DNA from: a virus
Taxonomy: Duplodnaviria; Heunggongvirae; Uroviricota; Caudoviricetes
Virus record (IMG/VR): IMGVR_UViG_3300045988_012512
Coordinates: 1 to 43,981 of that record
DNA length: 43,981 nt
Reading direction: 5' to 3' (one strand)
The notes under the pieces: model-generated
The model's database searches: none
The model's input: the letters and a program-made list of their open reading frames with translations, nothing else
Told to the model about the DNA's origin: nothing
Shown here: positions 1 to 43,981 of the stretch, in pieces
Layout of the letters: the number at the start of each line of letters is the position of its first letter
Position numbering within the stretch: the first letter of the stretch is position 1
Made by a program: the position numbers and the translations under genes

Positions 1-55
1 GAATAATGTTGTTGATGCGCGCACCATCTAGCGCTACCCGCGGCGGCTTGACTAC
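1..55. repeat. 55-bp terminal direct repeat, identical to 43927..43981 (genome junction / assembly overlap)
   Basis: Same 55-nt string at both ends of the window; minus-strand tailspike frame is continuous across the junction. Confidence 0.85.
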
Positions 56-9317: not shown

Positions 9318-10448
9318 ATGGCCCAGAAGAAAATAACCGACGAACAGTTACAGGAAGAATTGAACGCCGGGATGAAGAATGTAGACATCGCCCGTAAATA
9401 CGGCATCTCAGACCGCGTTATTCGTATCCGTAAAGCGAAGCTGGCTAAGAAAGGCGTAGGTCACGGGCGAGACGTTAGTCACCTTGTGCCCGATGGCTAC
9501 AAGATTAAGGGTACATCGTCTCTGGTGGACGAGTTCGGCAACACTAAGTTGCAATGGGTTAAGACCGACACCGATGCCGAACGTCAGGTAGAGTTGATGA
9601 AAGCCGTAATCGAAGGAATGAAATCAGAGATTACGCCAGTCGCCCCTGTTAAAGCGGCACGCGCCAAACGTGACGATAAACTACTCAATCTTTACACTGT
9701 GTCTGATTTTCATCTCGGTATGCTGGCATGGGCCGATGAGAGCGGCGACGACTGGGATATGAAGATTGCAGAAGACCTGTTCTCTCGATGGTTCGACGCG
9801 GCGTTTCAGAAAGCACCGGACGCGGGAACAGGAGTTATTAACCTTCTGGGCGACCTCGCTCACTTCGATAGTCTGGATGCAGTTACACCTGCAAGCGGGC
9901 ATGTTCTTGATGCGGACACGCGCTATCAGAAACTTGTACGCTATATGATTCGGATGGTCCGCCGTGTCATTGATATGGCGCTGGTTAAGCATAAAAATGT
10001 TCGCTTGCTTATCGTGCAAGGGAACCACGACGAAAGCGGAATGATTTGGTTGGCTGAGATGTTCAGTACGCTGTATGACAACGAGCCGCGGGTGTTCGTC
10101 GATACGTCGCCGGATGTTTACAAGATGGTGCAACACGGCAAAACGACGCTGTTCTTTCATCACGGTCACAAAGCACGCTTCGACGCTATCGAACCAGTTA
10201 TGATTGCCAAGTTCCGCAAAGCGTTCGGCGAGAGTATTTACAGCTACGCCCACGTAGGCCATCTGCACCACCAGAAGATTGTAGAAAGCCGTAACATGAT
10301 TGTTGAGCAACACCGCACCTTAGCGGCTAAAGACGCCTACGCCTCTCGCGGCGGATGGATGTCGGGCCGCAGTGCAAATGTAATTACTTATAGCGCCGAA
10401 TATGGCGAGGTCGCACGTTTAACTATTTCACCGGAGATGCTGGGATGA
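9318..10448 (+). CDS. HTH domain fused to calcineurin-like (SbcD/Mre11-type) metallophosphoesterase
   Basis: N-terminal HTH (VDIARKYGISDRVIRIRKAKL); five phosphoesterase motifs SDFHLG, GDLAHFD, GNHDE, HHGH, GHLHH. Confidence 0.75.
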   Translation: MAQKKITDEQLQEELNAGMKNVDIARKYGISDRVIRIRKAKLAKKGVGHGRDVSHLVPDGYKIKGTSSLVDEFGNTKLQWVKTDTDAERQVELMKAVIEGMKSEITPVAPVKAARAKRDDKLLNLYTVSDFHLGMLAWADESGDDWDMKIAEDLFSRWFDAAFQKAPDAGTGVINLLGDLAHFDSLDAVTPASGHVLDADTRYQKLVRYMIRMVRRVIDMALVKHKNVRLLIVQGNHDESGMIWLAEMFSTLYDNEPRVFVDTSPDVYKMVQHGKTTLFFHHGHKARFDAIEPVMIAKFRKAFGESIYSYAHVGHLHHQKIVESRNMIVEQHRTLAAKDAYASRGGWMSGRSANVITYSAEYGEVARLTISPEMLG

Positions 10449-10933
10449 AAGATATTGTAATTTTCGATTTAGACGGGACATTGGCCGACGGTACCCATCG
10501 CTTACACCTGTTACCAAAAGATAACTACGGAGAAACGTGGGCGTGGAAGCCATTTAACATGGCCTGCAAAGATGACGCTCCGATATACGACAATATCCAT
10601 TTGTGTAGCGTACTGTGGCATTCCGGACTTACTATAATTATCCTTACCGGGCGAAGTGATGACGCTGAGGAGGAGACTCGCGAATGGTTACGAGAGAATA
10701 ACGTTAGGTTTGACACGCTAATCATGCGCAGCAAACACGACAACAGAAAAGACATCGTAATTAAAGAAGAGGTGTTGCGTGCTTTCGGACTGGAAAGAAT
10801 CTTGTGTGCGTTCGACGACTCTCCAGCGGTAATAAAGCATTTCCGTGACCTCGGCATAACCGCACACGCAGTTACCGAATACGACTGTAACGGGAACTCT
10901 ACACACTTAAAACCACACGGGAGCGATAAATAA
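10445..10933 (+). CDS. HAD-superfamily phosphatase (T4 polynucleotide kinase 3'-phosphatase-domain-like)
   Basis: FDLDGTLA, IIILTGRSDD, RKDIVIKEEVL and DDSPAV motifs; ATGA overlap with the upstream gene. Confidence 0.7.
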   Translation: MKDIVIFDLDGTLADGTHRLHLLPKDNYGETWAWKPFNMACKDDAPIYDNIHLCSVLWHSGLTIIILTGRSDDAEEETREWLRENNVRFDTLIMRSKHDNRKDIVIKEEVLRAFGLERILCAFDDSPAVIKHFRDLGITAHAVTEYDCNGNSTHLKPHGSDK

Positions 10934-11487
10934 TGGCTAAGGTAATTATTCTTAATGGCCCTGCGGGTTGCGGGAAAGACACGCTTGCTATGGCGCTGGT
11001 AGAAATGGGCTTTGCGAAAGGAACTACCAGTTTCAAGAATCCAATGTTCAATATTGCTTTGGCAGCGTTAGGCCAGGATGCTTACCACGAATTTCTCGAC
11101 GGCTACGACGACCGGGCGCGGAAAGAAAAACCCGAGGGTTTTCTTAATGGGTTGTCCCGCCGCCAGTTAATGATTGCCATTTCTGAGCAATTCATTAAAC
11201 CGGTATTCGGCGATGATTATTTCGGTAAGTATCTTGCTGAAAACTTGCCTGACGGCGACGAAGTTTTTGTAGTGTCCGACGGTGGATTCGCCAGTGAAGT
11301 TGCCCCTATCGTCGCCGCGGGGCATGACGTGCGAATCGTCCGCCTCCATCGTGACGGCTATACGTTCATCGGCGATAGCCGTGGCTATCTGTACGATGTT
11401 AGTGGTGTAAAAGATTACGACACCTACATCATACCGGGTGACGTTAAATCGAACGTTATAGACATTGCTTTAAAATTAGGTTTGTAA
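10933..11487 (+). CDS. deoxynucleoside monophosphate kinase (T4 gene 1-like P-loop kinase)
   Basis: Walker A GPAGCGKDT; further blocks resemble T4 dNMP kinase; TAATG overlap with the HAD gene. Confidence 0.65.
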   Translation: MAKVIILNGPAGCGKDTLAMALVEMGFAKGTTSFKNPMFNIALAALGQDAYHEFLDGYDDRARKEKPEGFLNGLSRRQLMIAISEQFIKPVFGDDYFGKYLAENLPDGDEVFVVSDGGFASEVAPIVAAGHDVRIVRLHRDGYTFIGDSRGYLYDVSGVKDYDTYIIPGDVKSNVIDIALKLGL

Positions 11488-18582: not shown

Positions 18583-19104
18583 ATGGTTACTACAGTAATT
18601 ACTTTCCCTGCGTATGTAGGGGCAAAAATCTGCAGGGCTAAAAATGATGTGCGCTACTATTTGAACGCTTTTTACATAGACCCTGAAGGATTGATAGTGT
18701 CTACGGACGGTCATAGATTGTTCTGCGACAATGTGAAGACCAATGTTGAGAAAGGGACTCTCATAGACATCAAAGGGAGAGAGCCTTCTAAATTTAACTA
18801 CGCAGAGGTAAACCACGACAACGGCAGTGTAACTTTCTATGACGATAATCGTGCGCTTATATGCACGCTTCCGGTAGATGTTGTAGAAGGAAACTTTCCT
18901 GACTGGAGACGCGTGGCGAACATCACACCGGGTGTTGTCGATAGTATAGGGTTCACTCTGCGCTATTTGGCAGACGCGTACAAGATTTCTAAGGCATACA
19001 AAAATGAAATTGCTCGTTTCGATTTCCAGGACCAAACCAGAGGATGTAAAATACTATTTTCAAACACGGCCTTTATGGTGTTAATGCCTGCGCGATTTAA
19101 ATAA
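18583..19104 (+). CDS. truncated DNA polymerase III beta sliding-clamp (DnaN) homologue
   Basis: DVRYYLN, STDGHRL, FPDWRRV and C-terminal VLMPARFK match E. coli DnaN motifs DVRYYLNG, TDGHRL, FPDYRRV, VMPMRL; AGGAG RBS, own promoter and terminator. Confidence 0.7.
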   Translation: MVTTVITFPAYVGAKICRAKNDVRYYLNAFYIDPEGLIVSTDGHRLFCDNVKTNVEKGTLIDIKGREPSKFNYAEVNHDNGSVTFYDDNRALICTLPVDVVEGNFPDWRRVANITPGVVDSIGFTLRYLADAYKISKAYKNEIARFDFQDQTRGCKILFSNTAFMVLMPARFK

Positions 19105-31724: not shown

Positions 31725-33992
31725 ATGTCCGATGTAATTTTATCCTACTCGTGGTCTCGTCGCAACGCGCGGGCAGAGAAAAAGGATATAAACGTCAGAA
31801 CCACACACACGGCAACACTGGACGACCTGAAAGAGTTAATCCAGCCGCTTGATGCTGTCCGTGACGGAATTAACCCGAAGACAGCGCCCGGTTATATCAC
31901 CGCCGCGTGCGACTCAACGCACAGCACCGTAAAAGACCCGGAAACCGGTGACTTTAAGCGAGCGCGTAAAGGCTTCTTCTATCGCTGTGACGCGTCTGTA
32001 AGCAAATCATCGCTGGCGTATCTGGACTTTGACAGCGCAACGCCGGAAGAGTATCAGGAAGCGGTGCGCCTGGTTAAGCGTAGCCGCCAGGCTATGTGTC
32101 TCTACACCACGGCATCCCATACCGATGAGTCACCGCGCTTTCGCGTCGTCATGCCGCTGGGCCGCCCGGTCGAAGGGGGCGACATCATCCGCATACGTCA
32201 TGGATTGCTGGAGCACTTCTTCAAAGGCATGGGCGCTGACCGTAGCGGGTTCACTTTGTCTCAGCCCATGTACCTTCCTCCGGTAGGCTCTCAGGTTATC
32301 TGGTCGCGCCGTAACGACCTTATTGACCCGGAAGAGTTACTGGAAGGCATCCCCGCCGTTGACGTTAGCAGCGCATCTGACTACCAGATACCGGAAGAAC
32401 TGCGCACTGCATTTACTGATGCGTTCGAGGCACTGGCGTTCGAATACGGCGGCATCATGACGCCGCGTGGCCTTAAGATGCCCGCCACACCGGAACACGC
32501 AGAAAACTACAGCGACCCGACCCCGCGCCCGGACGACTTCCTGCTGTGCTTCCCGCGCGAGGGATATGAAGCGCCGAACGTAACGATGATTCACGACACC
32601 GACATCACGGCAACCGAAGGCATGTCGCCGAAAGAGGTGTGGAAGTATGCGTGTGATGCGACCGGACTGCCGTTCAGTGAAGTCGCAGAGGCCATCGGAT
32701 GGGGCGCGCGTGAAGCCGTCTCATGCAGCCTGGATGACCTTGAAGACGACGAGGACTCAGAGGAGGACGAGTTACCGGAACCGGTAAAGGCTGATTTCGT
32801 CGTTGAGGGGTACATGCCGTCGGATTGTATCTGGGATATTGTTGGGGAGTCTGGCACGTATAAATCATTCTATACGCTGGGGATGATGTACCTGAGCGCC
32901 GCCGGATACCGGTTTGCCGGGGCAGATACCCAGCGTTGCCACCATTTCTATATCGACGGTGAGGGCGGTGCCACTACACGCACCCGTATTGATGCACTCG
33001 CGGCTAAATATGGCGAGGAAGGTAAAGATTATGTACATGTTATCGATATGGGTGAAGTCGGAAAACTGAAAAGCCTGATTAAGTTAATGCGCGAAACTGC
33101 GGGTGATGAACCCATCGGCATGGTCGCGTTCGACACCCTTAACCAGACGCTGGCCCTGACGATTGATAAGTTCGACGAGAACAGTTCATCAACGGCAATC
33201 GGCATGGGTAAAGTTATCGCCATCCTGAAAGAAGTACGCGACGCAACTAAAGCCGCGGCAGGCGTTGTACACCATACGCCGAAGGGTGGAAAGAAAGCCC
33301 GTGGCAGTGGAGCATTGTATGCTGGTGTCGACGTGGAACTGACAATCGAACGTGCTACCGACCGTCAGATAAACGTATACCACTCTAAATTTAAGCACGG
33401 GCCTCAACAGAAGACGGTTGGCATGGTACTGGAGTCGGTACAGTTTCGTGAAGCACCGCCGCCGAAAGAGTACCGCGCGGTTGAGTTCCTCGGTAGCACA
33501 GAGGAATACGGCACAATAGTAAACCTCGACCTGCCTGAGCCGCACAAGGCGCTTGTGCTGATGCCGTGGGGCTTCGAGCCGTTCAAGACTGATGAGGAGA
33601 AAGAGCGGGAAGAAGGGTTAACTAACGAAGGTAAACAAAATGTACGTAAAACCGTAGAGAACGCCGTCAACAGTTCCGAGTCCACTATACTCGCGGCGTT
33701 TGAACTGGCGGAGGGGACCTACAACGGCAACGAAGGTATCACGGTATCCGCGGCGAATAAGCTCGCACAGTCTGACCCCAACGCAAAGGCGTTTAACTCC
33801 AAAGAAGCCATAGAACGCGGGAAGATTAAGAAAATGGTTGAGGCTGGGTATCTTGTTCCGGGTACTGACGAAAACAATCAGATAATCCCAGGCCGTTACA
33901 GACTTAACACCCGGATAACGGATAACAAGATTCCGAAGACAATATACGAACCCAATGAGATGCTGACAGTGACAGAGGAGGATTTGGAATGA
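31725..33992 (+). CDS. replication protein: primase-like N-terminal domain plus RecA-like ATPase/helicase domain
   Basis: N-terminal LAYLDFD and SHTDESPRFRV (primase-polymerase-like); central GESGTYKS P-loop and MVAFDTL Walker-B-like segment. Confidence 0.55.
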   Translation: MSDVILSYSWSRRNARAEKKDINVRTTHTATLDDLKELIQPLDAVRDGINPKTAPGYITAACDSTHSTVKDPETGDFKRARKGFFYRCDASVSKSSLAYLDFDSATPEEYQEAVRLVKRSRQAMCLYTTASHTDESPRFRVVMPLGRPVEGGDIIRIRHGLLEHFFKGMGADRSGFTLSQPMYLPPVGSQVIWSRRNDLIDPEELLEGIPAVDVSSASDYQIPEELRTAFTDAFEALAFEYGGIMTPRGLKMPATPEHAENYSDPTPRPDDFLLCFPREGYEAPNVTMIHDTDITATEGMSPKEVWKYACDATGLPFSEVAEAIGWGAREAVSCSLDDLEDDEDSEEDELPEPVKADFVVEGYMPSDCIWDIVGESGTYKSFYTLGMMYLSAAGYRFAGADTQRCHHFYIDGEGGATTRTRIDALAAKYGEEGKDYVHVIDMGEVGKLKSLIKLMRETAGDEPIGMVAFDTLNQTLALTIDKFDENSSSTAIGMGKVIAILKEVRDATKAAAGVVHHTPKGGKKARGSGALYAGVDVELTIERATDRQINVYHSKFKHGPQQKTVGMVLESVQFREAPPPKEYRAVEFLGSTEEYGTIVNLDLPEPHKALVLMPWGFEPFKTDEEKEREEGLTNEGKQNVRKTVENAVNSSESTILAAFELAEGTYNGNEGITVSAANKLAQSDPNAKAFNSKEAIERGKIKKMVEAGYLVPGTDENNQIIPGRYRLNTRITDNKIPKTIYEPNEMLTVTEEDLE

Positions 33993-34191: not shown

Positions 34192-34210
34192 AAGGGGCAT
34201 TAAGCCCCTT
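34192..34210. terminator. bidirectional intrinsic terminator (AAGGGGC-ATTAA-GCCCCTT)
   Basis: Hairpin between convergent genes, T-runs on both sides. Confidence 0.6.
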
Positions 34211-34415
34211 CACCTAACGCCAGCCACTTGGCGTCTACTTCCAGCACTTCCGCCAGTTTAAACAGCGTTGCCGGGCGGACGTCCTGAGTTACACCGAGAG
34301 CCAGCTGGTTAATCGCACCCTGGGAAACGCCAGTCAGGACAGCCAGCCGGCGCTGGGAGATGCCGAGTTCTTTACGGCGTTGCTCTACACGGATTCCTAG
34401 TTCAGATGGTTGCAT
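34200..34415 (-). CDS. XRE-family (Cro/CI-type) HTH transcriptional regulator
   Basis: LGISQRRLAVLTGVSQGAINQL HTH; AAGGAG RBS; divergent from the promoter at 34480. Confidence 0.65.
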   Translation of the reverse strand: MQPSELGIRVEQRRKELGISQRRLAVLTGVSQGAINQLALGVTQDVRPATLFKLAEVLEVDAKWLALGEGA

Positions 34416-34479
34416 GTCAATTACTCCTTAGTCAGTTGATATGTGAATAGTACCATATTAATTATTTTAGAAAAGCCCA

Positions 34480-34508
34480 TTGACATGTGAATAGTTCGCT
34501 ATTATAGT
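34480..34508 (+). promoter_or_regulatory. consensus sigma70 promoter (TTGACA-17-TATAGT)
   Basis: Perfect -35; overlaps the second copy of the ATGTGAATAGT direct repeat. Confidence 0.6.
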
Positions 34509-34538
34509 TAGCCCATACCAAACGAGAGGAGAGACAAA

Positions 34539-34715: not shown

Positions 34716-35237
34716 ATGTTAGAGAAATTCTTAGTATTACTGGAACGTTTCGTAGTTGCACATGAACTGATTGCTGCGAACAGTGTGAAACAACCGACTA
34801 ATAAATCTGTAGGTGAATTGACTGTTGACGTCGCGGTAACTGGGGTGGAGACAGTTAAAAAAGAACTGGCTAAAGCACTTGAAGAAGTCGAGAAGGCGAA
34901 AGAACTCCCAGTCGAAGGTGAAGACCTCGTTGACACTAAACCGGCGGAAGAAGAGAAGCCGAAACGCAAGCCGCGTAAAGCTAAAGTAGAGGAGCAGACG
35001 CCAGAACCGGAAGAAGAGAAGGAAGAAGTCAATTATCAGTCTCTGCGCGACCAGATTCAGGCTATCGACGATGCGATTAACGAAGGTCCGAGTGACACCG
35101 CGTGTGATGATTCCGATGAACTGCTGGAAGAGTTCACTGGTAAGAAGATGAAGATTGCTGCTATTAAAGACGAAGACCTCGCCGAGTACCTGGAACGCCT
35201 GACAGCAATCAAGAACAAGTATTTCGAAGAAGAATAA
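34716..35237 (+). CDS. highly acidic Glu/Asp-rich protein
   Basis: AGGAG RBS; long Glu/Asp/Lys-rich segments. Confidence 0.45.
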   Translation: MLEKFLVLLERFVVAHELIAANSVKQPTNKSVGELTVDVAVTGVETVKKELAKALEEVEKAKELPVEGEDLVDTKPAEEEKPKRKPRKAKVEEQTPEPEEEKEEVNYQSLRDQIQAIDDAINEGPSDTACDDSDELLEEFTGKKMKIAAIKDEDLAEYLERLTAIKNKYFEEE

Positions 35238-35559: not shown

Positions 35560-35690
35560 TTATGTATTCAATCGGTGAGGAAGAGTACGAACACAGTAGA
35601 TACCTTACATCCGCAGAGGCTGAGAATATAATACACGAACTTGACGCTGACAGTTTTGACTACGCATGGATTGAGGAGATTACGGAATGA
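35550..35690 (+). CDS. hypothetical small acidic protein (46 aa)
   Basis: ATG 35550 with GGAGAACAGGG upstream; ATGA-coupled to the exonuclease gene. Confidence 0.3.
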   Translation: MFVIMYSIGEEEYEHSRYLTSAEAENIIHELDADSFDYAWIEEITE

Positions 35691-36928
35691 TTCTTAAAGA
35701 ACGTGGTGGCAATAACGATGTGCACGCAATACTGTCGCCGTCTGGCGCTAAAAAGTGGTTAAGTTGCGCGGCATCACTGGCATGTGAAAAAGATATTCCT
35801 AACACGTCCGGTAAAGACGCCGTATTAGGCACGGCTATGCACACGATAGCGGAGATGCACCTTAACCAGTACATCAAAGGCACTGCGCTGCCGTTAGAGC
35901 GTGAAGTCGGCGCTTACGTGATGGATGAGGGTAAAGGTCAGATTAAGGCGCTAATCAGTCCGATGAAAGGCGCGGTGCTTATTACGGCGGACATGATTGA
36001 GCAGGTGCGCAAGTACACCGACTACTGCAAAGCGATTATCGATGTAGCTACTTACGCCAAACTCGAGATGCGCGTCAATCTTACTGAGGTATTGCACCCC
36101 GGTTACGAAGGCGTTGAGACATTCGGAACCGCTGACCTTGTTGCCGTCCAGGAACTGGCGAACATCGACGAGCACATGCTTATCATCGGCGACCTGAAAA
36201 CTGGACGGCATCGTGTCGAAGCGAAAGAAAACAAGCAGCTTATGCTATACGCTCTCGGTGTTTATCGCCGACTAAAGAGACGTTATAACATCACAGTTGT
36301 TCGTCTGGTCATCTTCCAGCCGTACGCGGGTGGCGCGTCGGAGTGGGACATCTCGGTCGAAGGTCTGGAACTGTTCGCCAAGTTCGCACAGAAACGCGCA
36401 CTGTTGGCTCTTGATGCATATTTCCGCGGTAAGAAGAACCTGAAAGCGTCTGACTTCAAGCCGTCGGTCGATGGTTGTCAGTGGTGTCGGTTCTCTGAAC
36501 AATGCGCCGCGCGTACAAAGACGGTCAATTCTGTACTGGCGGAAGAACTGGAAGACGACTTTGCACTGGAACTGACGCCAGAGCAACTCGTAGCTGAGTA
36601 TGAGAAGCTGCCGTTGTTGCGCCAGCACATCGACAAGGTTGAGAAAGCTATGGTCGCCGCGTTGCATTCTGGTAAGAAAGTGCCGGGGTACAAATTGGTT
36701 GAGGGTCGTCCAGGTAATCGTGCGTGGAAAGATGCCGATGCGGTATTCGAGAAGTACGGTACTATGCTGCAAAAGGTAGTTCTGATGACACCAACCGAAG
36801 CGGTTAAAGTAATACCAGAAGAAGAACTGAAAGACTTCATTACCCGTAAGCCAGGAGCGCCATGCGTCGCAACGGCGGATGACAAGCGTCCTGAGTGGAA
36901 TCAGGTAACAGAGGAGGATTTGGAATGA
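35687..36928 (+). CDS. Cas4/RecB-like PD-(D/E)xK exonuclease with Cys cluster
   Basis: N-terminal LSPSGAKKWLSC, IGDLKTGRH core, C-terminal CQWCRFSEQC. Confidence 0.65.
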   Translation: MILKERGGNNDVHAILSPSGAKKWLSCAASLACEKDIPNTSGKDAVLGTAMHTIAEMHLNQYIKGTALPLEREVGAYVMDEGKGQIKALISPMKGAVLITADMIEQVRKYTDYCKAIIDVATYAKLEMRVNLTEVLHPGYEGVETFGTADLVAVQELANIDEHMLIIGDLKTGRHRVEAKENKQLMLYALGVYRRLKRRYNITVVRLVIFQPYAGGASEWDISVEGLELFAKFAQKRALLALDAYFRGKKNLKASDFKPSVDGCQWCRFSEQCAARTKTVNSVLAEELEDDFALELTPEQLVAEYEKLPLLRQHIDKVEKAMVAALHSGKKVPGYKLVEGRPGNRAWKDADAVFEKYGTMLQKVVLMTPTEAVKVIPEEELKDFITRKPGAPCVATADDKRPEWNQVTEEDLE

Positions 36929-37098
36929 TGGTTTATATTCTCACGCGGTATCACCGCCGATACTCTATTCAAGAACTTGATATTGTTTCTGTCCACGCTA
37001 AACGCGCCGACGCCGACAAAATTGCAGAAGAGAAGAACTCGAAGCATGAGGCGGTGCAGCCATATATTTATAAGGTGGTTCCGAAGAAACTTAAATAA
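36925..37098 (+). CDS. hypothetical small protein
   Basis: GGAGGA RBS before ATG 36925 (ORF track starts at 36895). Confidence 0.35.
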   Translation: MMVYILTRYHRRYSIQELDIVSVHAKRADADKIAEEKNSKHEAVQPYIYKVVPKKLK

Positions 37099-37102
37099 AG
37101 TG

Positions 37103-37131
37103 TTGACACCTGAATAGCAAGCTATTATAGT
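37103..37131 (+). promoter_or_regulatory. consensus sigma70 promoter (TTGACA-17-TATAGT) for SSB and polymerase genes
   Basis: Perfect -35 with canonical spacing. Confidence 0.6.
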
Positions 37132-37190
37132 TCTAATCACTGGCCGGGCAGCTTCCCGGAGTAAACGAAACTGAAAAGCGAGAAATCACG

Positions 37191-37823
37191 ATGGGTATTA
37201 AACTGAATCTGCGTAAAGTAAACACTGCTTGGGTTAACGTATTCGAACGCGAAAAAGACCGTGAAAACGATGATGGCTCAATCACTAAAGGCCAGTACAG
37301 CGCGACTATCATCCTTCCGTCTGACCATGCTCAAATCGACGCGCTCTACGACACCGTTTACGCTGTAGTTGAAGAAGCGTTAGGTGCAGCCGCCGCCGAG
37401 AAGTGGATGAAGTCCAACTACGGCGAAGGTAAGCACATGGATAAATGTGCGATTAAAGATATCGCTGAGCGCGACAATCCGTTTGAAGACTTCCCGGAAG
37501 GCTTCTACTTCAAAGCGAAGGCACAAAAACAGCCGCTGATTGTAACCTCTAAAAAAGGTGAGACTCAGGTAGAGCAGGACTTCAACGTAGACGGCGAACA
37601 GATTGAAGGTGAACAGGTTTACAGCGGCTGCGTAGCTAACGTAAGCGTTGAAATCTGGTTCAGCCAGAAATACAAAGTTCTCGGTGTTAACCTGCTGGCG
37701 ATTAAATACGTCGGCGAAGGTAAGGCGTTCGGTGGTTCTAAAGTCGCCGCAAGCGTCGACGACCTGGAAGACGACCTTGAGGATGATGGGCCAGCACCAC
37801 GCCGCGAACGTCGTCGCCGCTAA
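37191..37823 (+). CDS. single-stranded DNA-binding protein (T7 gp2.5-like)
   Basis: Block similarity to T7 gp2.5; acidic C-terminal DDLEDDLEDD. Confidence 0.55.
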   Translation: MGIKLNLRKVNTAWVNVFEREKDRENDDGSITKGQYSATIILPSDHAQIDALYDTVYAVVEEALGAAAAEKWMKSNYGEGKHMDKCAIKDIAERDNPFEDFPEGFYFKAKAQKQPLIVTSKKGETQVEQDFNVDGEQIEGEQVYSGCVANVSVEIWFSQKYKVLGVNLLAIKYVGEGKAFGGSKVAASVDDLEDDLEDDGPAPRRERRRR

Positions 37824-37842
37824 TATCTGAATAAATTTAACT

Positions 37843-37866
37843 AAGGCCCTTCATTGGGCCTTTTTA
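37843..37866 (+). terminator. intrinsic terminator (AGGCCC-TTCATT-GGGCCT then five T)
   Basis: Between SSB and DNA polymerase genes. Confidence 0.55.
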
Positions 37867-37882
37867 CTAAGGGTCGAAAATA

Positions 37883-40132
37883 ATGAGTTACCTGTTCTTA
37901 GACTTTGAAACATTCTCCGAAGCCGATTTGAAGAAAGTCGGCTCCTATGCTTACGCTGAGCACCCAACTACCGAAGTGCTTATCTGCACATACGCTTTTG
38001 ACAACGAGCCAGTGCAGATATGGGATTGCACCGACGGCAGCGACATGCCTGGCGATTTGCACCGCGCACTACGCCGCCTGGTTAAACCAAACAGTCGCAT
38101 TAAGATGGTGTGGCATAACGGTGGACTTTTCGACAGGCTCATCATGAAAAACTGCTGGGACTTTGATATTCCGGTAAGCAACACCATTGATACTATGATT
38201 TGGGCGTTTCGCCACGCGCTGCCGGGTTCGCTAGATGCGCTGTGCGAAGTGCTTGGCGTGTCCGCCGACAACGCGAAAGACAAACGCGGCAAGGCGCTTA
38301 TTCAGCGTTTCTCTAAACCGACACCGAAGAACTACAAAATCCGCCGATACACCGCCGAAACGCACCCGGATGAGTGGGCGCTGTTCATCAAGTACGCCGT
38401 GAGCGACATCACTGCGATGCGTGAAGTCTTCCATAAGCTGCCGCGTTGGGGTAACTCAGAGTTCGAAGACCGTGTACTGGAACTGGACCAGTTAATCAAT
38501 GACCGCGGGTTTAAGGTCGACGTTGCACTGGCGGAAGCCGCGATTGAAGCCGTGGAGAAGCACAAGGCGCAGTTACAGGAAGAAGCCCAACGTAAATACG
38601 GCGGGTCGCTTACCGGTAAAGACTTTCTGCCTATTCTGCGTGAACTCGCTCCTGCGCACAGAATCCACAACGCGCAGAAGTCGACGCTGAATGACCTGCT
38701 GGCTGATGATGATTTACCGGACGACGCTCGCGCGATTATCGAAATGCGCCTCGGGGCGGCGTCCACTGCGTCAACGAAATATAACCCGCTGCTGCTAGGA
38801 CGCTCGTCGGACGACCGCCGTCGTGGTTGTATCCAGTACGGAGGCGCTAAGCGTACATTACGGTTTGCGGGTAAAGGCTTCCAGCCACAGAACCTCGCAC
38901 GCGGGTACTATCACGACGACCCGAAGAATAAAAAGAAGAAAGTACGTTATGACTGGATGTCAGAGAAGGACTGGTGGAGAGTAACGCACCCATTGTCCTA
39001 CGGAATTGACCTGCTGTTTAAAGGCCGTGCGCATCGCCGTTTTGATGTGGCAAAACTGACAGCATCTACGGTGCGTAGCTGCATCATACCGGAAGCCGGG
39101 CATAAGTTTGTCGTAGCTGATTACTCTAACGTTGAAGGTCGCGGGTTGGCATGGCTGGCAGGAGAAGAAACCGCTCTCGATACCTTCCGTGCGGGATTGG
39201 ATATTTACTGTGTAACCGCGGGTAAGATGTTCGGCATGGACCCTGATTACATTCTCGAAAGCCGTAGTGACCTACGCCAGATAGGTAAAGCATGTGAATT
39301 GGGCCTTGGCTATGCTGGTGGTGTCGGTGCTTTCGTTCAGTTTGCTAAGAACCTCGGCTTAAACCTGGTCGATATGGCTAAAACAATGGACGGGACTTTC
39401 CCCGACCATATATGGGCCGCTACTGCACGCGGATACGAGTGGGCGCGTATTCAGGAAGCCAAGCGACCGCCACGCCCCGGTGAAAAAGATGACCGGCCAT
39501 CATATATTCTCGATAAGAAAGTGTGGCGCACATGTGATGCAATCAAGCGTATGTGGCGCGAGTCTCACCCTGAAACAGTAGCATTCTGGCGTGATATTGA
39601 AGACGCAGCTATGGCGGCTATCCGCAACCCAGGTAAAGAGTTCACTGCAGGTCCGCGGGGAGTTAAGTTTTCGCGTAACGTAGAAACAGATAACAACGGC
39701 AACAAAGTCGCTGGTTGGTGGTTGCGGATGACGTTGCCGTCGGGTCGCGTTATGTCATACCCCGGCGTCGGGTTAAGTGTATCGAAAGAGACAGACGAAG
39801 ACGGAAAGGTGTCTACTAACGTGCGCATCAAGTACCAGGGGGAAAACCAGTTAACCCGTCAGTGGGGCTTCCAGTACACCTACTCCGGTAAACTGGTGGA
39901 AAACTGCACTCAGGCGCTGTGCCGTGATTTGCTGGCTAACGCCCTGCTGAATGTAGAAGCAAACGGATATCCAATTGTGCTTCATGTTCACGATGAGATT
40001 ATCTGCGAGACCCCAGATTTACCAGAATACAATGTCGCAGAGCTTGGGCGGTTGATGTGCGAATTACCGGAATGGGCCGAAGGGTTCCCTCTTGTAGCGG
40101 AAGGTGCGGAGATGATGCGTTATGCCAAGTAA
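37883..40132 (+). CDS. family A DNA polymerase with 3'-5' exonuclease domain
   Basis: 749 aa; N-terminal exonuclease motif FLDFETFS; C-terminal VLHVHDEI polymerase motif. Confidence 0.85.
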   Translation: MSYLFLDFETFSEADLKKVGSYAYAEHPTTEVLICTYAFDNEPVQIWDCTDGSDMPGDLHRALRRLVKPNSRIKMVWHNGGLFDRLIMKNCWDFDIPVSNTIDTMIWAFRHALPGSLDALCEVLGVSADNAKDKRGKALIQRFSKPTPKNYKIRRYTAETHPDEWALFIKYAVSDITAMREVFHKLPRWGNSEFEDRVLELDQLINDRGFKVDVALAEAAIEAVEKHKAQLQEEAQRKYGGSLTGKDFLPILRELAPAHRIHNAQKSTLNDLLADDDLPDDARAIIEMRLGAASTASTKYNPLLLGRSSDDRRRGCIQYGGAKRTLRFAGKGFQPQNLARGYYHDDPKNKKKKVRYDWMSEKDWWRVTHPLSYGIDLLFKGRAHRRFDVAKLTASTVRSCIIPEAGHKFVVADYSNVEGRGLAWLAGEETALDTFRAGLDIYCVTAGKMFGMDPDYILESRSDLRQIGKACELGLGYAGGVGAFVQFAKNLGLNLVDMAKTMDGTFPDHIWAATARGYEWARIQEAKRPPRPGEKDDRPSYILDKKVWRTCDAIKRMWRESHPETVAFWRDIEDAAMAAIRNPGKEFTAGPRGVKFSRNVETDNNGNKVAGWWLRMTLPSGRVMSYPGVGLSVSKETDEDGKVSTNVRIKYQGENQLTRQWGFQYTYSGKLVENCTQALCRDLLANALLNVEANGYPIVLHVHDEIICETPDLPEYNVAELGRLMCELPEWAEGFPLVAEGAEMMRYAK

Positions 40133-40253
40133 ACTTATTATCGCGGTACTGGCGGGATTCGCCGCCGGTGTCTACTGTCACGAGGGCCAATACGGCATGA
40201 TGGTTGCCGTGTTGGGCATGTTCATCGCAATTTATCTGTGGGTGCTGGAATGA
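40122..40253 (+). CDS. micro-ORF encoding a two-helix membrane peptide (43 aa)
   Basis: MPSKLIIAVLAGFAAGVY...VAVLGMFIAIYLWVLE; overlaps the polymerase stop. Confidence 0.3.
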   Translation: MPSKLIIAVLAGFAAGVYCHEGQYGMMVAVLGMFIAIYLWVLE

Positions 40254-40339
40254 AAATTTACTGGTTCTACGAAGAAGACTGTCGAATCTGTCCGCGCTGC
40301 GGGATTGAACATACGAAACGTGAGGGGTGTGTATTATGA
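40250..40339 (+). CDS. micro-ORF encoding a Cys-rich peptide (29 aa)
   Basis: MKIYWFYEEDCRICPRCGIEH...; ATGA-coupled. Confidence 0.25.
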   Translation: MKIYWFYEEDCRICPRCGIEHTKREGCVL

Positions 40340-40413
40340 CAATGCTTACCACTATTATGATAATCGTAGCCGTGTTTTTAGGTGTTGCCGTTTTGAGTAA
40401 GGTAACGGACTGA
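40336..40413 (+). CDS. micro-ORF encoding a single-helix membrane peptide (25 aa)
   Basis: MTMLTTIMIIVAVFLGVAVLSKVTD; coupled on both sides. Confidence 0.25.
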   Translation: MTMLTTIMIIVAVFLGVAVLSKVTD

Positions 40414-40697
40414 TGACCCCGGAAGGCAAAATACAGAAATACGCGAAAGAGCGATTCGAGGCCCTCGGCGGCCTCGTTCGTAAACTTTCCTATGAGGGGC
40501 GCTCCGGCGCTCCCGACCTGCTGGTGATTCTCCCCGGCGGCATCGTCTGGTTCGTCGAGGTTAAGAAAGACGAAAACACGGAACCAGACCCACACCAGTT
40601 ACGAGAGCATGAGCGGATGCGTAAACGTGGCGCGAATGTTTTTGTCGTCGGATCGTTTAAACAGGTTGACGACCTAATAGCGAACTATTATAGTTAG
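40413..40697 (+). CDS. VRR-NUC domain nuclease
   Basis: GAPDLLVILPGG...VWFVEVKK PD-(D/E)xK core. Confidence 0.65.
   Translation: MTPEGKIQKYAKERFEALGGLVRKLSYEGRSGAPDLLVILPGGIVWFVEVKKDENTEPDPHQLREHERMRKRGANVFVVGSFKQVDDLIANYYS
40666..40694 (+). promoter_or_regulatory. sigma70-type promoter (TTGACG-17-TATAGT) inside the 3' end of the VRR-NUC gene
   Basis: Canonical spacing; -10 identical to the promoters at 34480 and 37103. Confidence 0.45.
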
Positions 40698-40727: not shown

Positions 40728-40919
40728 ATGAAACACGAATATGACCGCAAACCAGCACGTGACATCGTACCTGGTGACATGATTTTCAACGTTAAGACCC
40801 GTCGCCCTGTTGCCGTTGATACGGTGTTCGTCGAGTCGAATGGTAAACTGGTTATTGAAGACGTAACCGGTAACGTTACGGCGTTCGGGCGTAAAGAGTT
40901 AGTTCTGGTGGCAAAATGA
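40728..40919 (+). CDS. hypothetical protein
   Basis: 63-aa ORF; stop overlaps the helicase start. Confidence 0.4.
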   Translation: MKHEYDRKPARDIVPGDMIFNVKTRRPVAVDTVFVESNGKLVIEDVTGNVTAFGRKELVLVAK

Positions 40920-42340
40920 GTAAGTTTCAAAGGCGCGAATACCAGAAGCTCATGACTTCGTTCATGCTGCAACACCCGCGCTGTAATATCTGGTGCGGCA
41001 TGGGAGGAGGTAAAACCTCCTCCACTATGTGGGTGCTAAACCGCCTGTTCCGCAACGGGCAGCTTACCGAAGAGGACCGCGTGTTAATCCTCGCCCCGTT
41101 GCGCGTTGCGTCCGGTACGTGGCCTGCAGAACAAGAGAAATGGAACTTTCCTTGTCTGCGTGTCGTAGATGCGACCGGTTCAGAGAAGCGCCGCATCGCG
41201 GCGCTGGAGTCTGATGCTAACGTGGTGTGCACGAACTACGAAGTTATCGAATGGCTGATTGACTACTACGGCAAAGACGACTGGCCTTTTACGGTTATCG
41301 TTGCCGATGAAAGCACGAAGCTTAAATCATTCCGCAGCCGTTCGGGTGGTAGCAAGCGGGCAAAGGCGCTTAGTAAAGTGGCGTTCGGTAAGGTTAGGCG
41401 TTTCATCAACCTGACTGGTACGCCGTCACCAAACGGCCTTAAAGACTTGTGGGGTCAGAACTGGTTTATCGACGCGGGCGAGCGCCTTGGCTCATCATAC
41501 ACGGCATTCACCGACCGCTGGTTTAACTCGGTACAGAAAGGAAAATCTGCGATGGCTCGTGAATATCACGCACGACCGGGTGCGGATAATGAGATTCACC
41601 AGAAGATGAAAGACATCAGCTTGACCATCGACCCCGCCGAGTGGTTTGGTTGCGAAGCTCCTGTTATCGTACCGGTCGAAATAGACCTGCCGAAGAAAGC
41701 GCGTCAGGCGTACATAGACATGGAGGAGAAGCTATTCGCGGAACTGGAGAGCGGGGAGGTTGAAGCGGCTAACGCCGCGGCGAAGACGTCGAAGTGTTTG
41801 CAGATTGCATCCGGTGCCGTATATGTGTCGGGGTCAGACGGCGAAGCAACCAAAGAATGGGAGAAAGTGCACGACACGAAACTGGATGCGCTGGAGTCAA
41901 TTGTTGAGGAGTTACAGGGTGCACCGTTACTGGTGGCCTATCAGTTTAAGCACGAACTGGAGCGCATCCTTAAGCGATTCCCGCAGGCGCAGGCGTTTGC
42001 CAAAGGTGCGAAGGGTAATAAGCAGATGGAAGCGTGGAACCGAGGTGAAATCGAAATCATGTGCGTGCATCCTGCGTCAGCCGGGCATGGTTTGAATTTA
42101 CAGGACGGCGGGCATCATCTTGCGTTCATCTCACAAGGATGGAACCTTGAGCACTATTTGCAGGTCGTTGAGCGCATAGGCCCGGTACGCCAGAAGCAGG
42201 CAGGCCACGAGCGCCCGGTGTTCCTTTATCACATAGTCGCTAAAGACACGCTGGATGAGGTTGTTGCCGCGCGTACAGACGATAAGAAATCGGTACAGGA
42301 AGAATTGCTCAATTACATGAAGAGACGAGGTACGAAATGA
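40916..42340 (+). CDS. SNF2-family (DEAD-like) helicase/ATPase
   Basis: GMGGGKTS (motif I), LILAPLRV, VADEST (motif II), NLTGTPSPNG (motif III). Confidence 0.7.
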   Translation: MSKFQRREYQKLMTSFMLQHPRCNIWCGMGGGKTSSTMWVLNRLFRNGQLTEEDRVLILAPLRVASGTWPAEQEKWNFPCLRVVDATGSEKRRIAALESDANVVCTNYEVIEWLIDYYGKDDWPFTVIVADESTKLKSFRSRSGGSKRAKALSKVAFGKVRRFINLTGTPSPNGLKDLWGQNWFIDAGERLGSSYTAFTDRWFNSVQKGKSAMAREYHARPGADNEIHQKMKDISLTIDPAEWFGCEAPVIVPVEIDLPKKARQAYIDMEEKLFAELESGEVEAANAAAKTSKCLQIASGAVYVSGSDGEATKEWEKVHDTKLDALESIVEELQGAPLLVAYQFKHELERILKRFPQAQAFAKGAKGNKQMEAWNRGEIEIMCVHPASAGHGLNLQDGGHHLAFISQGWNLEHYLQVVERIGPVRQKQAGHERPVFLYHIVAKDTLDEVVAARTDDKKSVQEELLNYMKRRGTK

Positions 42341-43926: not shown

Positions 43927-43981
43927 GAATAATGTTGTTGATGCGCGCACCATCTAGCGCTACCCGCGGCGGCTTGACTAC
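43927..43981. repeat. second copy of the 55-bp terminal direct repeat
   Basis: Identical to positions 1..55. Confidence 0.85.

What the first reader, a model, noticed from the sequence alone, without database searches (positions are those of the whole stretch)
35687..40697. Replication and recombination module combining a Cas4-like nuclease, gp2.5-like SSB, family A polymerase and VRR-NUC nuclease
The Cas4/RecB-type nuclease has the typical N-terminal Cys and C-terminal CxxCx5C cluster, the SSB resembles T7 gp2.5, and a VRR-NUC nuclease follows the polymerase. Together this suggests recombination-dependent replication. No dedicated processivity factor is evident other than the truncated DnaN-like protein encoded elsewhere.
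Basis: partly seen in the sequence, partly recalled or inferred. Interest (0 to 1): 0.35.

Follow-up and report, generated by a model that had tools for sequence, protein, structure and literature searches.

The report
Known phage DNA replication-recombination gene block

Summary
Window 35687-40697 encodes, on the + strand:
- a DUF2800 PD-(D/E)XK nuclease with an invariant Cys27...Cys264-x2-Cys267-x5-Cys273 cluster;
- a DUF2815/Enc34-type (T7 gp2.5-like) SSB;
- a proofreading family A DNA polymerase;
- a VRR-NUC nuclease 88% identical to the crystallised Holliday-junction resolvase saNUC of Salmonella phage SETP3 (PDB 4QBN).

The window is a complete Kagunavirus-like genome, about 90% identical in DNA to K1G, K1ind and Bas70, where the same genes carry the same annotations. 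The literature already names the "duf2800-gp2.5-polA module", so the finding is already known and of low interest.

The inference of recombination-dependent replication is plausible but unproven. The phage has its own primase-helicase, and truncation of the homologous nuclease is tolerated in phage Bas14. The DnaN-like ORF (18583-19104) is real but accessory, a 173-aa fragment, and no module protein has a clamp-binding motif.

One extra point may be new. The nuclease and primase-helicase both end in VTEEDLE, and the SSB carries SVDDLEDD. Such D-[F/L] acidic tails co-vary between nuclease and SSB or primase-helicase across 29 lineages (permutation p<=1e-5). This suggests a T7-like shared docking peptide.

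The parts
31725..33992 (+). Primase-helicase, 755 aa (context, outside the finding). The last 7 residues, VTEEDLE (33969-33989), are identical to the nuclease tail.
   Evidence: PHROG 3228 'replicative helicase-primase' E=4.3e-288; Pfam AAA_25 E=4.8e-17; tail.
34480..34509 (+). Promoter-like element with an embedded inverted repeat: TTGACA-N2-TGAATAG-N3-GCTATTATAGTT. It heads the transcription unit that ends with the nuclease.
   Evidence: 11/12 match to the sigma-70 consensus. The 30-nt pattern occurs exactly twice, against 0 expected. Weaker copies lie at 34436 and 40666.
34716..35237 (+). Conserved uncharacterised 173-aa protein encoded upstream of the nuclease. It may be a further member of the module.
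   Evidence: PHROG 3127, unknown function, E=8.3e-68. A C-terminal ~45-aa domain is shared with the gene upstream of DUF2800 in eight lineages. No significant Pfam or PDB hit.
35687..36928 (+). DUF2800 RecB-family PD-(D/E)XK nuclease with a four-Cys (presumed Fe-S) cluster. The acidic tail VTEEDLE lies at 36905-36925.
   Evidence: The homologue B14T (Bas14_0045) of Dhillonvirus phage Bas14 was modelled as AdnA/RecB-like, and its catalytic D177/K179 are required for retron IX triggering. For scale, the Dhillonvirus JL1 homologue is 45% identical to the window protein.
36895..37098 (+). Variable small ORF (67 aa) between the nuclease and the SSB. Bas70 has an unrelated 67-aa ORF in this slot.
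   Evidence: No PHROG hit. The C-terminal sequences in the window and in Bas70 are different.
37103..37132 (+). Second copy of the promoter/operator-like element, upstream of the SSB-polymerase unit.
37191..37823 (+). T7-type (DUF2815/Enc34 ORF6-like) SSB and putative annealing protein. The tail is SVDDLEDDLEDD (37752-37787) followed by the basic end GPAPRRERRRR.
   Evidence: PMC5686142.
37843..37869 (+). GC-rich hairpin (AAGGCCC-TTCATT-GGGCCTT) followed by a T-run, between the SSB and the polymerase. It is terminator- or attenuator-like.
   Evidence: A terminator is annotated at the same position in Chivirus Siskin.
37883..40132 (+). Family A DNA polymerase with a 3'-5' exonuclease domain and no 5' nuclease domain. 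A lineage-variable basic insertion lies at aa 347-373 (38921-39001).
40122..40413 (+). Three small ORFs of 43, 33 and 28 aa. Two are hydrophobic and one has CxxC..C.
   Evidence: PHROG 10404 and 38225, unknown function. Matching small ORFs are annotated in Bas70.
40413..40697 (+). VRR-NUC nuclease (Holliday-junction resolvase type), with the motif E..PD34-35..E49-V-K51..Q62.
   Evidence: 88% identical to PDB 4QBN, the saNUC of Salmonella phage SETP3, which is dimeric and cleaves four-way junctions weakly (PMC4103454). PHROG 93 E=3e-33 and PHROG 5702 'Holliday junction resolvase' E=3.9e-19.
40916..42340 (+). SNF2-family helicase (context, downstream). It is syntenic with the module in Guernseyvirinae, Dhillonvirus and Chivirus.
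   Evidence: Pfam SNF2-rel_dom E=7.8e-13; PHROG 62 E=6.7e-167; synteny.

Best explanation
The interval is the core of the early DNA-metabolism block of a complete Kagunavirus-like (Guernseyvirinae) E. coli siphophage. It is the previously described duf2800-gp2.5-polA module, extended by a VRR-NUC resolvase and flanked by a primase-helicase upstream and an SNF2 helicase downstream.

Shown here: the identity of each protein, and the conservation of gene order across many phage lineages.

Inferred working model:
- The phage runs a clamp-less, T7-style replisome of primase-helicase, proofreading PolA and gp2.5-type SSB.
- The Fe-S RecB-family nuclease resects DNA ends, and the SSB anneals the exposed complementary single strands. 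This circularises or concatemerises the terminally redundant genome and repairs broken forks.
- The VRR-NUC dimer cuts four-way and branched junctions so that concatemers can be packaged.

They would dock on one common surface, either basic patches of the polymerase (as T7 gp4 and gp2.5 do) or the SSB groove. That would couple end-processing physically to the replisome.
For: Identity:
- About 90% DNA identity to Kagunavirus records, with the same annotations: exonuclease / Gp2.5-like SSB / DNA polymerase / Holliday junction resolvase.
- The window is a complete genome. It has a 55-nt exact terminal overlap, and the identical nuclease protein is on record on a 43,981-nt contig.

Distribution and synteny:
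- DUF2800 homologues occur in 1514 phage records.
- The order nuclease-SSB-pol(-VRR-NUC-SNF2) is kept in Dhillonvirus, Chivirus, a Klebsiella Guernseyvirinae phage and Yersinia and Corynebacterium phages. The core order nuclease-SSB-pol is kept in Staphylococcus Triavirus and Bacteroides phages.

Literature:
- The module is named in PMC8093625.
- Enc34 ORF6 is a T7-type SSB, and its C-terminal tail inserts into the groove of a neighbouring molecule in the crystal (PMC5686142).
- saNUC is a dimeric junction-cleaving enzyme (PMC4103454).
- A DUF2800 homologue needs its PD-(D/E)XK residues for activity in vivo.

Tails:
- In the window, only the nuclease and the primase-helicase, out of 514 ORFs of at least 40 aa, end in a strongly acidic tail, and both end in VTEEDLE.
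- D[FL] occurs in the last 20 aa of 25/29 nuclease lineages, 21/29 SSBs and 5/6 AAA_25-type primase-helicases, against 8% of 326 control ORFs.
- Same-genome tail similarity is 26.5 against 19.7 cross-genome; 0 of 100,000 permutations reach the observed value.
- T7 gp2.5 and gp4 both end in ...DF. Their tails bind basic patches of gp5/thioredoxin.
Against: - No biochemical data exist for any Kagunavirus protein of this module.
- The nuclease is dispensable for plaque formation in Dhillonvirus Bas14, where truncation escapers were isolated.
- Gp2.5-family proteins gave the lowest recombineering activity among the Pseudomonas-derived recombinases tested in P. putida (PMC5743808).
- saNUC cleaved junctions only weakly in vitro.
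- The exonuclease polarity, the Fe-S cluster and the annealing activity are all inferred.
- The tail-docking idea rests only on sequence covariation and analogy. The receptor surface is unknown. In this clade the SSB ends in a basic block rather than in the acidic motif. T7's own exonuclease gp6 has no such tail.
- My structure prediction of the nuclease failed (pLDDT 36.5), so fold-level confirmation comes only from a preprint on a homologue.
Confidence: 0.8

Rival explanations
1. Strict recombination-dependent replication. Most genome replication would be primed from recombination intermediates made by the nuclease and annealase, as in late T4 infection, rather than from primase-made primers at an origin.
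For: An exonuclease, an annealing-type SSB, a junction resolvase and an SNF2 helicase are clustered with the polymerase. The genome assembles as a circle, which is consistent with terminal redundancy or permutation that needs recombination to circularise.
Against: - A dedicated primase-helicase is encoded next to the module.
- No RecA/UvsX-type strand-invasion protein was seen among the module proteins scanned.
- Single-strand annealing alone does not create D-loops.
- The DUF2800 nuclease can be truncated in Bas14 without loss of viability.
Confidence: 0.25
2. The DUF2800 nuclease serves mainly in host takeover or counter-defence, for example host DNA degradation for nucleotide supply or interference with host nucleases. 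On this reading it sits beside the replication genes only for co-expression and plays no part in phage recombination.
For: It is non-essential in Bas14 and is sensed by a retron defence system through its nuclease activity. T7 gp6 exonuclease is annotated as acting both in recombination and in degradation of host DNA.
Against: - It is tightly adjacent to the gp2.5-type SSB and PolA across phages of four bacterial phyla (PMC8093625).
- Its C-terminal tail co-varies with the SSB tail of the same genome, which argues for physical integration with the replication and recombination machinery.
- No escapers were obtained in Queuovirinae, which suggests essentiality there.
Confidence: 0.12
3. The truncated DnaN-like protein (18583-19104) is the processivity factor of this polymerase.
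For: It is homologous to beta-clamp domain II plus the C-terminal end of domain III (E=8.5e-5 against PDB clamps; PHROG 947 'processivity factor' E=4.7e-9). It keeps residues that line the clamp's protein-binding pocket: DGHRL, FPDWRRV and the C-terminal MPAR. Which residues line that pocket is taken from my own knowledge of E. coli DnaN.
Against: - It is 173 aa against 366 aa for DnaN, so it cannot form a three-domain ring.
- It is encoded on the opposite strand inside the structural gene block.
- It is absent from Bas70 and most relatives that have the same polymerase.
- It also occurs in phages of other groups, for example Burkholderia phage Bcep781 and Edwardsiella and Vibrio phages.
- No clamp-binding motif is present in the polymerase or any other module protein.
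- Family A phage replicases such as T7 gp5 work without sliding clamps.
Confidence: 0.04

Closest known systems
duf2800-gp2.5-polA module of phages (PMC8093625; DUF2800 classified as RecB-like in PMC3424549)
   Same: The same three families in the same order, with no separate classical ssb gene. It is reported both in Firmicutes phages and in the majority of Gram-negative phages.
   Different: Nothing essential. Here the block continues with VRR-NUC and an SNF2 helicase and is preceded by a primase-helicase, as in other Guernseyvirinae.
Replication module of Enterobacter phage Enc34 and Chi-like phages (PMC5686142)
   Same: Primase, transcription factor, DUF2800, DUF2815 SSB (crystal structure 5ODJ/5ODK/5ODL), PolA, VRR-NUC and helicase in the same order.
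   Different: Protein identity is only about 21-31%. The Chi-type tails read W/F-DDEDxEV and are also present on the SNF2 helicase. The Kagunavirus SSB instead ends in a basic RRERRRR block.
Bacteriophage T7 replisome and recombination set (gp5/thioredoxin, gp4, gp2.5, gp6, gp3)
   Same: A family A polymerase without a sliding clamp, a bifunctional primase-helicase, a gp2.5-class SSB with annealing activity, an exonuclease and a junction resolvase. The primase-helicase and the SSB share acidic ...DF tails.
   Different: - The exonuclease here is a PD-(D/E)XK Fe-S-type enzyme, not related by name or Pfam family to T7 gp6.
- The resolvase is VRR-NUC, not endonuclease I.
- The primase-helicase matches a different helicase family (Pfam AAA_25).
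- No thioredoxin-binding domain was identified.
- Here the nuclease also carries the tail, whereas T7 gp6 does not.
saNUC, the VRR-NUC of Salmonella phage SETP3 (PDB 4QBN; PMC4103454)
   Same: 88% identical over 92 residues, with the same E-PD-ExK-Q active-site residues and the same length.
   Different: 11 substitutions. No data exist for this particular protein.
Cas4 / AddB / AdnA nuclease domains
   Same: RecB-type PD-(D/E)XK motifs plus one N-terminal and three C-terminal cysteines (C...CxxCx5C). The only PDB profile matches in the catalytic region are to AdnA, and they are not significant. The Bas14 homologue was modelled as AdnA/RecB-like.
   Different: None of 18 family members hits the Cas4 Pfam model. 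The protein has an extra ~140-aa C-terminal domain and an acidic tail.

Membership tests
DUF2800 (PF10926) phage nucleases | Full-length match to the family profile above the curated cut-off | tested here: met
   228.1 bits against a cut-off of 21, residues 13-402 on profile positions 1-368. All 18 aligned lineage representatives match.
RecB-family PD-(D/E)XK nucleases | Catalytic D, (D/E)xK and QxxxY motifs | tested here: met
   D150, D169-L-K171 and Q184...Y188 are invariant in 18 lineages. PDDEXK_1 scores 38.5 bits against a cut-off of 22.
Cas4 family (Fe-S RecB-like nucleases of CRISPR systems) | Four-cysteine pattern C-x(n)-C-x2-C-x5-C | tested here: met
   C27, C264, C267 and C273 are invariant in 18 lineages. 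Metal binding itself was not tested.
Cas4 family (Fe-S RecB-like nucleases of CRISPR systems) | Match to the Cas4 family profile | tested here: not met
   Only DUF2800 and PDDEXK_1 are reported at E<=0.01 for the window protein and for 18 relatives. 'Cas4-like' therefore describes a resemblance, not membership.
Cas4 family (Fe-S RecB-like nucleases of CRISPR systems) | Fe-S cluster actually bound; 5'-3' exonuclease activity | not testable with these tools
   This needs purified protein (UV-vis or EPR, and nuclease assays).
T7-type SSB / DUF2815 (PF10991) | Match to the family profile and to solved members | tested here: met
   57.4 bits against a cut-off of 26. A family profile hits 5ODJ at 1.7e-46, 4JG2 at 7.1e-44 and 4KLK at 3.3e-37.
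T7-type SSB / DUF2815 (PF10991) | Unstructured acidic C-terminal tail | tested here: met
   SVDDLEDDLEDD at aa 188-199. It is followed, unusually, by the basic end GPAPRRERRRR, a feature shared with Guernseyvirinae and Dhillonvirus SSBs.
T7-type SSB / DUF2815 (PF10991) | ssDNA binding and strand annealing | not testable with these tools
   ssDNA binding has been shown for Enc34 ORF6. Annealing is inferred from T7 gp2.5 and from the weak recombineering of DUF2815 proteins.
Family A DNA polymerases | Motifs A (DYSxxE), B (RxxxKxxxxxxxYG) and C (HDE) | tested here: met
   D413YSNVE, R465-K469-Y477 and H703DE. They are invariant in 6 lineages. DNA_pol_A scores 54.6 bits against a cut-off of 34.3.
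Family A DNA polymerases | 3'-5' proofreading exonuclease motifs Exo I-III | tested here: met
   D7/E9, N79..F83-D84 and Y171..D175 are present and conserved. The Pfam exo1 hit is only 21.1 bits, below the 23.6 cut-off.
T7 gp5-type replicase | Thioredoxin-binding domain in the thumb as the processivity device | tested here: inconclusive
   PDB and Pfam alignments cover only the palm and fingers, residues 394-507. No usable structure model was obtained. A variable basic insertion (aa 347-373) is absent from Bas70, so it is not a conserved device.
VRR-NUC (PF08774) Holliday-junction-resolving nucleases | Sequence membership and active-site residues E-PD-ExK plus the conserved Q | tested here: met
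   88% identity to 4QBN and E=1.5e-8 to 4QBO. PD34-35, E49-V-K51 and Q62 are present. The Pfam score alone is below the cut-off (17.5 against 23.8).
VRR-NUC (PF08774) Holliday-junction-resolving nucleases | Dimeric enzyme that cleaves four-way junctions | not testable with these tools
   Shown for the 88%-identical saNUC, with weak activity (PMC4103454).
Bacterial beta sliding clamp (DnaN), for ORF 18583-19104 | Three-domain subunit (~366 aa) able to form a ring | tested here: not met
   The ORF is 173 aa. It aligns to clamp residues 144-252 and 312-365 only. TIGR00663 scores 18.5 bits against a cut-off of 137.65.

The most novel reading that the evidence does not exclude
The DUF2800 nuclease, and in Guernseyvirinae, Dhillonvirus and Chivirus also the primase-helicase, carries a copy of the SSB's short acidic D-[F/L] C-terminal peptide, and this peptide co-evolves with the SSB tail within each phage lineage. 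If it is a true docking motif, these widespread phages use one 'tail code' to bring the end-resection nuclease, the primase-helicase and the SSB to the same site on the polymerase or on SSB-coated DNA. That would extend the T7 gp4/gp2.5 principle to a recombination nuclease. I found no description of this in the papers I searched and read; I did not run a literature search aimed specifically at it.
Probability: 0.5. Interest if true: 0.4.

Novelty: already known. Interest (0 to 1): 0.17.

Why it matters
The gene block is annotated in dozens of close relatives, one of its proteins has a crystal structure from a sister genus, and the module has a name in the literature.

Its practical value is as a clean, complete example of a very widespread phage replication and recombination cassette, with DUF2800 homologues in 1514 phage records. 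The relatives Bas70-76 are now available as model phages.

The shared, co-varying C-terminal tails offer a cheap and testable hypothesis on how a clamp-less PolA replisome recruits its helicase and a recombination nuclease. They may also bear on why DUF2800 nucleases are sensed by retron type IX.

Tried and rejected
1. AlphaFold2 on the nuclease, using the only alignment allowed (14 sequences at least 94% identical), gave an unusable model (mean pLDDT 36.5). No fold search was run.

2. Sequence and profile searches of the nuclease against the PDB gave nothing significant. The best catalytic-region match was to AdnA at E=4.6.

3. The primase-helicase has no PDB sequence relative.

4. The conserved ORF upstream of the nuclease has no significant Pfam or PDB match.

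5. A third locus scan, with alignment A9, failed for lack of a conserved stretch.

6. A search for clamp-binding motifs in seven module proteins found none.

7. I considered a DpoZ (aminoadenine) polymerase and rejected it: 26 bits against a cut-off of 500.

8. Rfam and tRNA scans of the whole window found nothing.

9. I considered the variable basic insertion in the polymerase (aa 347-373) as the tail receptor. I rejected it as a conserved device because Bas70 lacks it.
Full report
**What the window is.**
The 5-kb interval matches 445 phage records at DNA level. The best are about 90-91% identical: Escherichia phages SCS44, phiWAO78-1, K1ind2/3, K1G, several records named Kagunavirus, and BASEL phages Bas70 and Bas75. 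The structural half of the window matches the same phages.

The first and last 55 nt of the window are identical. The exact nuclease protein is on record on a 43,981-nt contig labelled Caudoviricetes sp.. The window is therefore a complete, circularly assembled Kagunavirus-like (Guernseyvirinae) genome of about 43.9 kb.

**Checking the observation.**
The coordinates run exactly from the start codon of a 413-aa ORF to the stop codon of a 94-aa ORF, all on the + strand.

- *Nuclease.* The 413-aa protein is a full-length DUF2800 member (E=2.6e-67). It passes the PDDEXK_1 threshold and PHROG 69 'exonuclease'. Its residues are D150, D169-x-K171, Q184-x3-Y188 and the cysteines C27, C264-x2-C267-x5-C273. 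All are invariant in an alignment of 18 sequences from lineages as far apart as Staphylococcus, Bacteroides, Corynebacterium and Chi-like phages.
- *SSB.* The 210-aa protein belongs to Enc34_ssDNA-bd/DUF2815 and to the PHROG annotated as Gp2.5-like. A profile of 18 family members finds the Enc34 ORF6 crystal structure at E=1.7e-46. Cernooka et al. showed that this family has the T7 gp2.5 fold at ~15% identity and binds ssDNA (PMC5686142).
- *Polymerase.* The 749-aa protein has all three exonuclease motifs and polymerase motifs A, B and C. It passes the DNA_pol_A threshold.
- *VRR-NUC.* The 94-aa protein misses the Pfam VRR_NUC threshold. But it is 88% identical to PDB 4QBN, the saNUC of Salmonella phage SETP3. 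Pennell et al. showed saNUC to be a dimer with a Holliday-junction-resolvase fold that cleaves four-way junctions, though weakly (PMC4103454).

So every protein assignment in the finding is confirmed.

**Is it known?**
Yes. Bas70 annotates the same four genes as exonuclease, 'ssDNA binding and annealing protein (Gp2.5-like)', DNA polymerase and Holliday junction resolvase.

DUF2800 homologues occur in 1514 phage records. The gene order nuclease-SSB-polymerase, usually followed by VRR-NUC and an SNF2 helicase with a primase or primase-helicase nearby, is kept in Dhillonvirus JL1, Chivirus Siskin, a Klebsiella Guernseyvirinae phage and Yersinia and Corynebacterium phages. The core order nuclease-SSB-polymerase is kept in Staphylococcus Triavirus IPLA35 and Bacteroides phages.

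A 2021 survey names the 'duf2800-gp2.5-polA module' and notes that it lacks a separate ssb gene and also occurs in most Gram-negative phages (PMC8093625). DUF2800 was filed as RecB-like in the 2012 PD-(D/E)XK census (PMC3424549). The Enc34 paper lists the same replication module.

**How it most likely works.**
Identity and synteny are shown. Function is inferred from characterised relatives.

The phage encodes its own primase-helicase (31725-33992; PHROG 3228, AAA_25 domain), a proofreading PolA and a gp2.5-class SSB. That is the composition of a clamp-less T7-type replisome. The RecB-family nuclease together with an annealing-capable SSB resembles a two-component exonuclease/annealase pair. 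The VRR-NUC supplies junction resolution.

The simplest reading has three parts:
- primase-dependent fork replication;
- single-strand-annealing recombination that circularises or concatemerises the genome and repairs broken forks;
- debranching of concatemers before packaging.

Transcription signals fit this. A 30-nt promoter-like element with an embedded inverted repeat (TTGACA-N2-TGAATAG-N3-GCTATTATAGTT) occurs exactly twice. One copy lies upstream of the unit ending with the nuclease (34480) and one upstream of the SSB (37103). Weaker copies lie at 34436 and 40666. A hairpin followed by a T-run sits between the SSB and the polymerase, where Siskin has an annotated terminator.

**Recombination-dependent replication.**
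The evidence against it as the main mode is as follows.
- The phage has a dedicated primase-helicase.
- I saw no strand-invasion recombinase among the proteins I scanned.
- Bas14 (Dhillonvirus) escape mutants with missense or truncating mutations in its DUF2800 gene are viable. Escapers could not be obtained in Queuovirinae, however (bioRxiv 10.64898/2026.07.14.737667).

That preprint also shows that the catalytic D/K residues of a DUF2800 protein are needed for its in vivo effect, and that DUF2800 nuclease activity triggers retron type IX.

**The DnaN-like protein.**
It exists: ORF 18583-19104 (+), 173 aa, on the opposite strand inside the structural block. It aligns to E. coli beta-clamp residues 144-252 and 312-365.

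It is found in 224 phage records, but only 27 of them are at least 60% identical. It is absent from Bas70. It is far below the DnaN equivalog threshold. None of seven replication-module proteins has a clamp-binding motif.

It is therefore an accessory gene and an unlikely processivity factor for this polymerase.

**An extra observation.**
The nuclease and the primase-helicase, which are unrelated proteins, both end in VTEEDLE. The SSB carries SVDDLEDDLEDD just after its OB fold. Among the 83 annotated proteins of Bas70, these two have the most acidic tails. Among 514 window ORFs of at least 40 aa, they are the only ones with at least 4 acidic and at most 1 basic residue in the last 8.

The motif changes together in other lineages:

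| Phage | Nuclease tail | Partner tail(s) |
|---|---|---|
| Klebsiella VLCpiS11a | SDEDLS | primase-helicase SDEDLNS |
| Dhillonvirus JL1 | TDEDLSNE | primase-helicase TDDDLKD |
| Chivirus Siskin | WDDEDDDEV | primase-helicase FDDEDEV; SSB WEDEV; SNF2 helicase VWDDEE |
| Staphylococcus IPLA35 | AEDDFDKL | SSB AEDDFDEL |
| Yersinia YeP5 | ...AESLI | SSB ...AESLI |
| Bacteroides BU241P1 | IDDFEE | SSB IDDFDFE |

I then added loci from two IMG/VR scans and reduced the set to 29 nuclease clusters below 60% identity.
- D[FL] occurs in the last 20 residues of 25/29 nucleases, 21/29 SSBs and 5/6 AAA_25-type primase-helicases.
- It occurs in only 4/27 polymerases, 5/20 SNF2 helicases, 2/18 primases of the other type and 8% of 326 control ORFs.
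- Same-genome tail similarity exceeds cross-genome similarity; 0 of 100,000 permutations reach the observed value.

T7 gp2.5 and gp4 both end in ...DF, while T7 gp6 exonuclease does not. Their tails bind basic patches on gp5/thioredoxin and compete with each other. In Enc34 ORF6 crystals the tail lies in the groove of a neighbouring SSB molecule.

The inference is that these phages use one shared docking peptide to recruit the SSB, the primase-helicase and, unlike T7, the recombination nuclease to a common surface. It is an inference from covariation and analogy. The receptor is unknown and nothing was tested physically.

**Limits.**
The fold-level claim for the nuclease therefore rests on motifs, Pfam and the preprint.

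'Cas4-like' should be read as resemblance only. The four-Cys pattern and RecB motifs are there, but no member of the family matches the Cas4 profile.

**Verdict.**
The feature is an already known, widely distributed phage module, so interest is low. The co-varying tails are the only element that might be new.

Noticed in passing
window 33969-33989, 36905-36925, 37752-37787; also loci L003-L009, L053-L163: The nuclease and the primase-helicase end in the identical peptide VTEEDLE, and the SSB has SVDDLEDDLEDD. Acidic D-[F/L] tails co-vary between the DUF2800 nuclease and the SSB or primase-helicase across 29 lineages (permutation p<=1e-5). T7 gp2.5 and gp4 share ...DF, but T7 gp6 does not.
   Followed up: yes
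window 18583-19104 (+): A 173-aa DnaN-like fragment is encoded on the opposite strand within the structural genes. It retains clamp domain II and the C-terminal strand, including DGHRL, FPDWRRV and MPAR. From my own knowledge of E. coli DnaN, these residues line the clamp's partner-binding pocket. It could be a decoy for clamp-binding host proteins rather than a clamp. Pipelines annotate it inconsistently, as 'RusA-like resolvase' or 'Pol III beta'. It is present in 224 phage records.
   Followed up: partly
window 34480-34509, 37103-37132 (exact core); 34436-34465 and 40666-40695 (weaker): A family of 30-nt promoter-like elements with a conserved spacer that holds the inverted repeat AATAG-N5-CTATT overlapping the -10 box. 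This looks like promoter-plus-operator sites that split the replication block into transcription units. A divergent HTH regulator gene lies at 34200-34415 (-).
   Followed up: partly
window 34716-35237 (+); L003:6769-7491, L004:4108-4512, L005:5825-6187, L007:8252-8986, L008:8198-8710, L009:8389-8961: An uncharacterised protein (PHROG 3127) is encoded just upstream of DUF2800 in many lineages. The copies share a C-terminal ~45-aa domain (LLxxFGxKKLxxIxxExxxxxxxxL) after a charged low-complexity linker. There is no significant Pfam or PDB match. It may be a fifth conserved member of the module.
   Followed up: partly
window 1-55 and 43927-43981: An exact 55-nt terminal direct repeat. This is an assembly overlap and indicates a complete, circularly closed genome of about 43,926 bp.
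   Followed up: yes
window 38921-39001 (polymerase aa 347-373): A basic, Trp-rich 27-aa segment (PKNKKKKVRYDWMSEKDWWRVTHPLSY). Bas70 and the Klebsiella phage lack most of it, and Dhillonvirus JL1 has a partial counterpart. It is a lineage-variable surface insertion in the polymerase.
   Followed up: partly
window 39299-39301 (polymerase Leu473): In motif B, the position that corresponds to Klenow F762 and T7 Y526 is Leu. It is invariant in six divergent members of this polymerase subfamily. That position governs sugar selectivity in Pol I enzymes (my own knowledge).
   Followed up: no
window 36895-37098; L001:7239-7442: The small ORF between the nuclease and the SSB is replaced by an unrelated ORF of the same length in Bas70. 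This looks like a hot spot for gene replacement inside the module.
   Followed up: no
L039, L041 (polymerase); hits H42, H44-H48 (nuclease): In some Jerseyvirus relatives the polymerase ORF ends prematurely with unrelated sequence. PHROGs 7766 and 10285 are C-terminal polymerase fragments, and PHROG 93 'endonuclease' overlaps polymerase residues 467-561. In the same group the nuclease gene is 150-190 nt longer or matches in two pieces. These are probably insertions of homing endonucleases or inteins, or split genes.
   Followed up: no
window 9318-11487 (+): An island of three +-strand genes lies inside the minus-strand structural block: a metallophosphatase 'DNA repair exonuclease' (PHROG 704), a HAD-type PNKP phosphatase, and a dNMP kinase-like protein. 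This is a second set of nucleic-acid end-processing genes, outside the main module.
   Followed up: partly
window 37788-37823 (SSB C-terminus): The SSBs of Guernseyvirinae and Dhillonvirus end in a strongly basic block (GPAPRRERRRR here; repeated acidic/basic blocks in JL1 and VLCpiS11a) after the acidic motif. The T7, Chi, Staphylococcus and Bacteroides-phage SSBs examined end in an acidic motif with a hydrophobic residue at or near the terminus instead.
   Followed up: no
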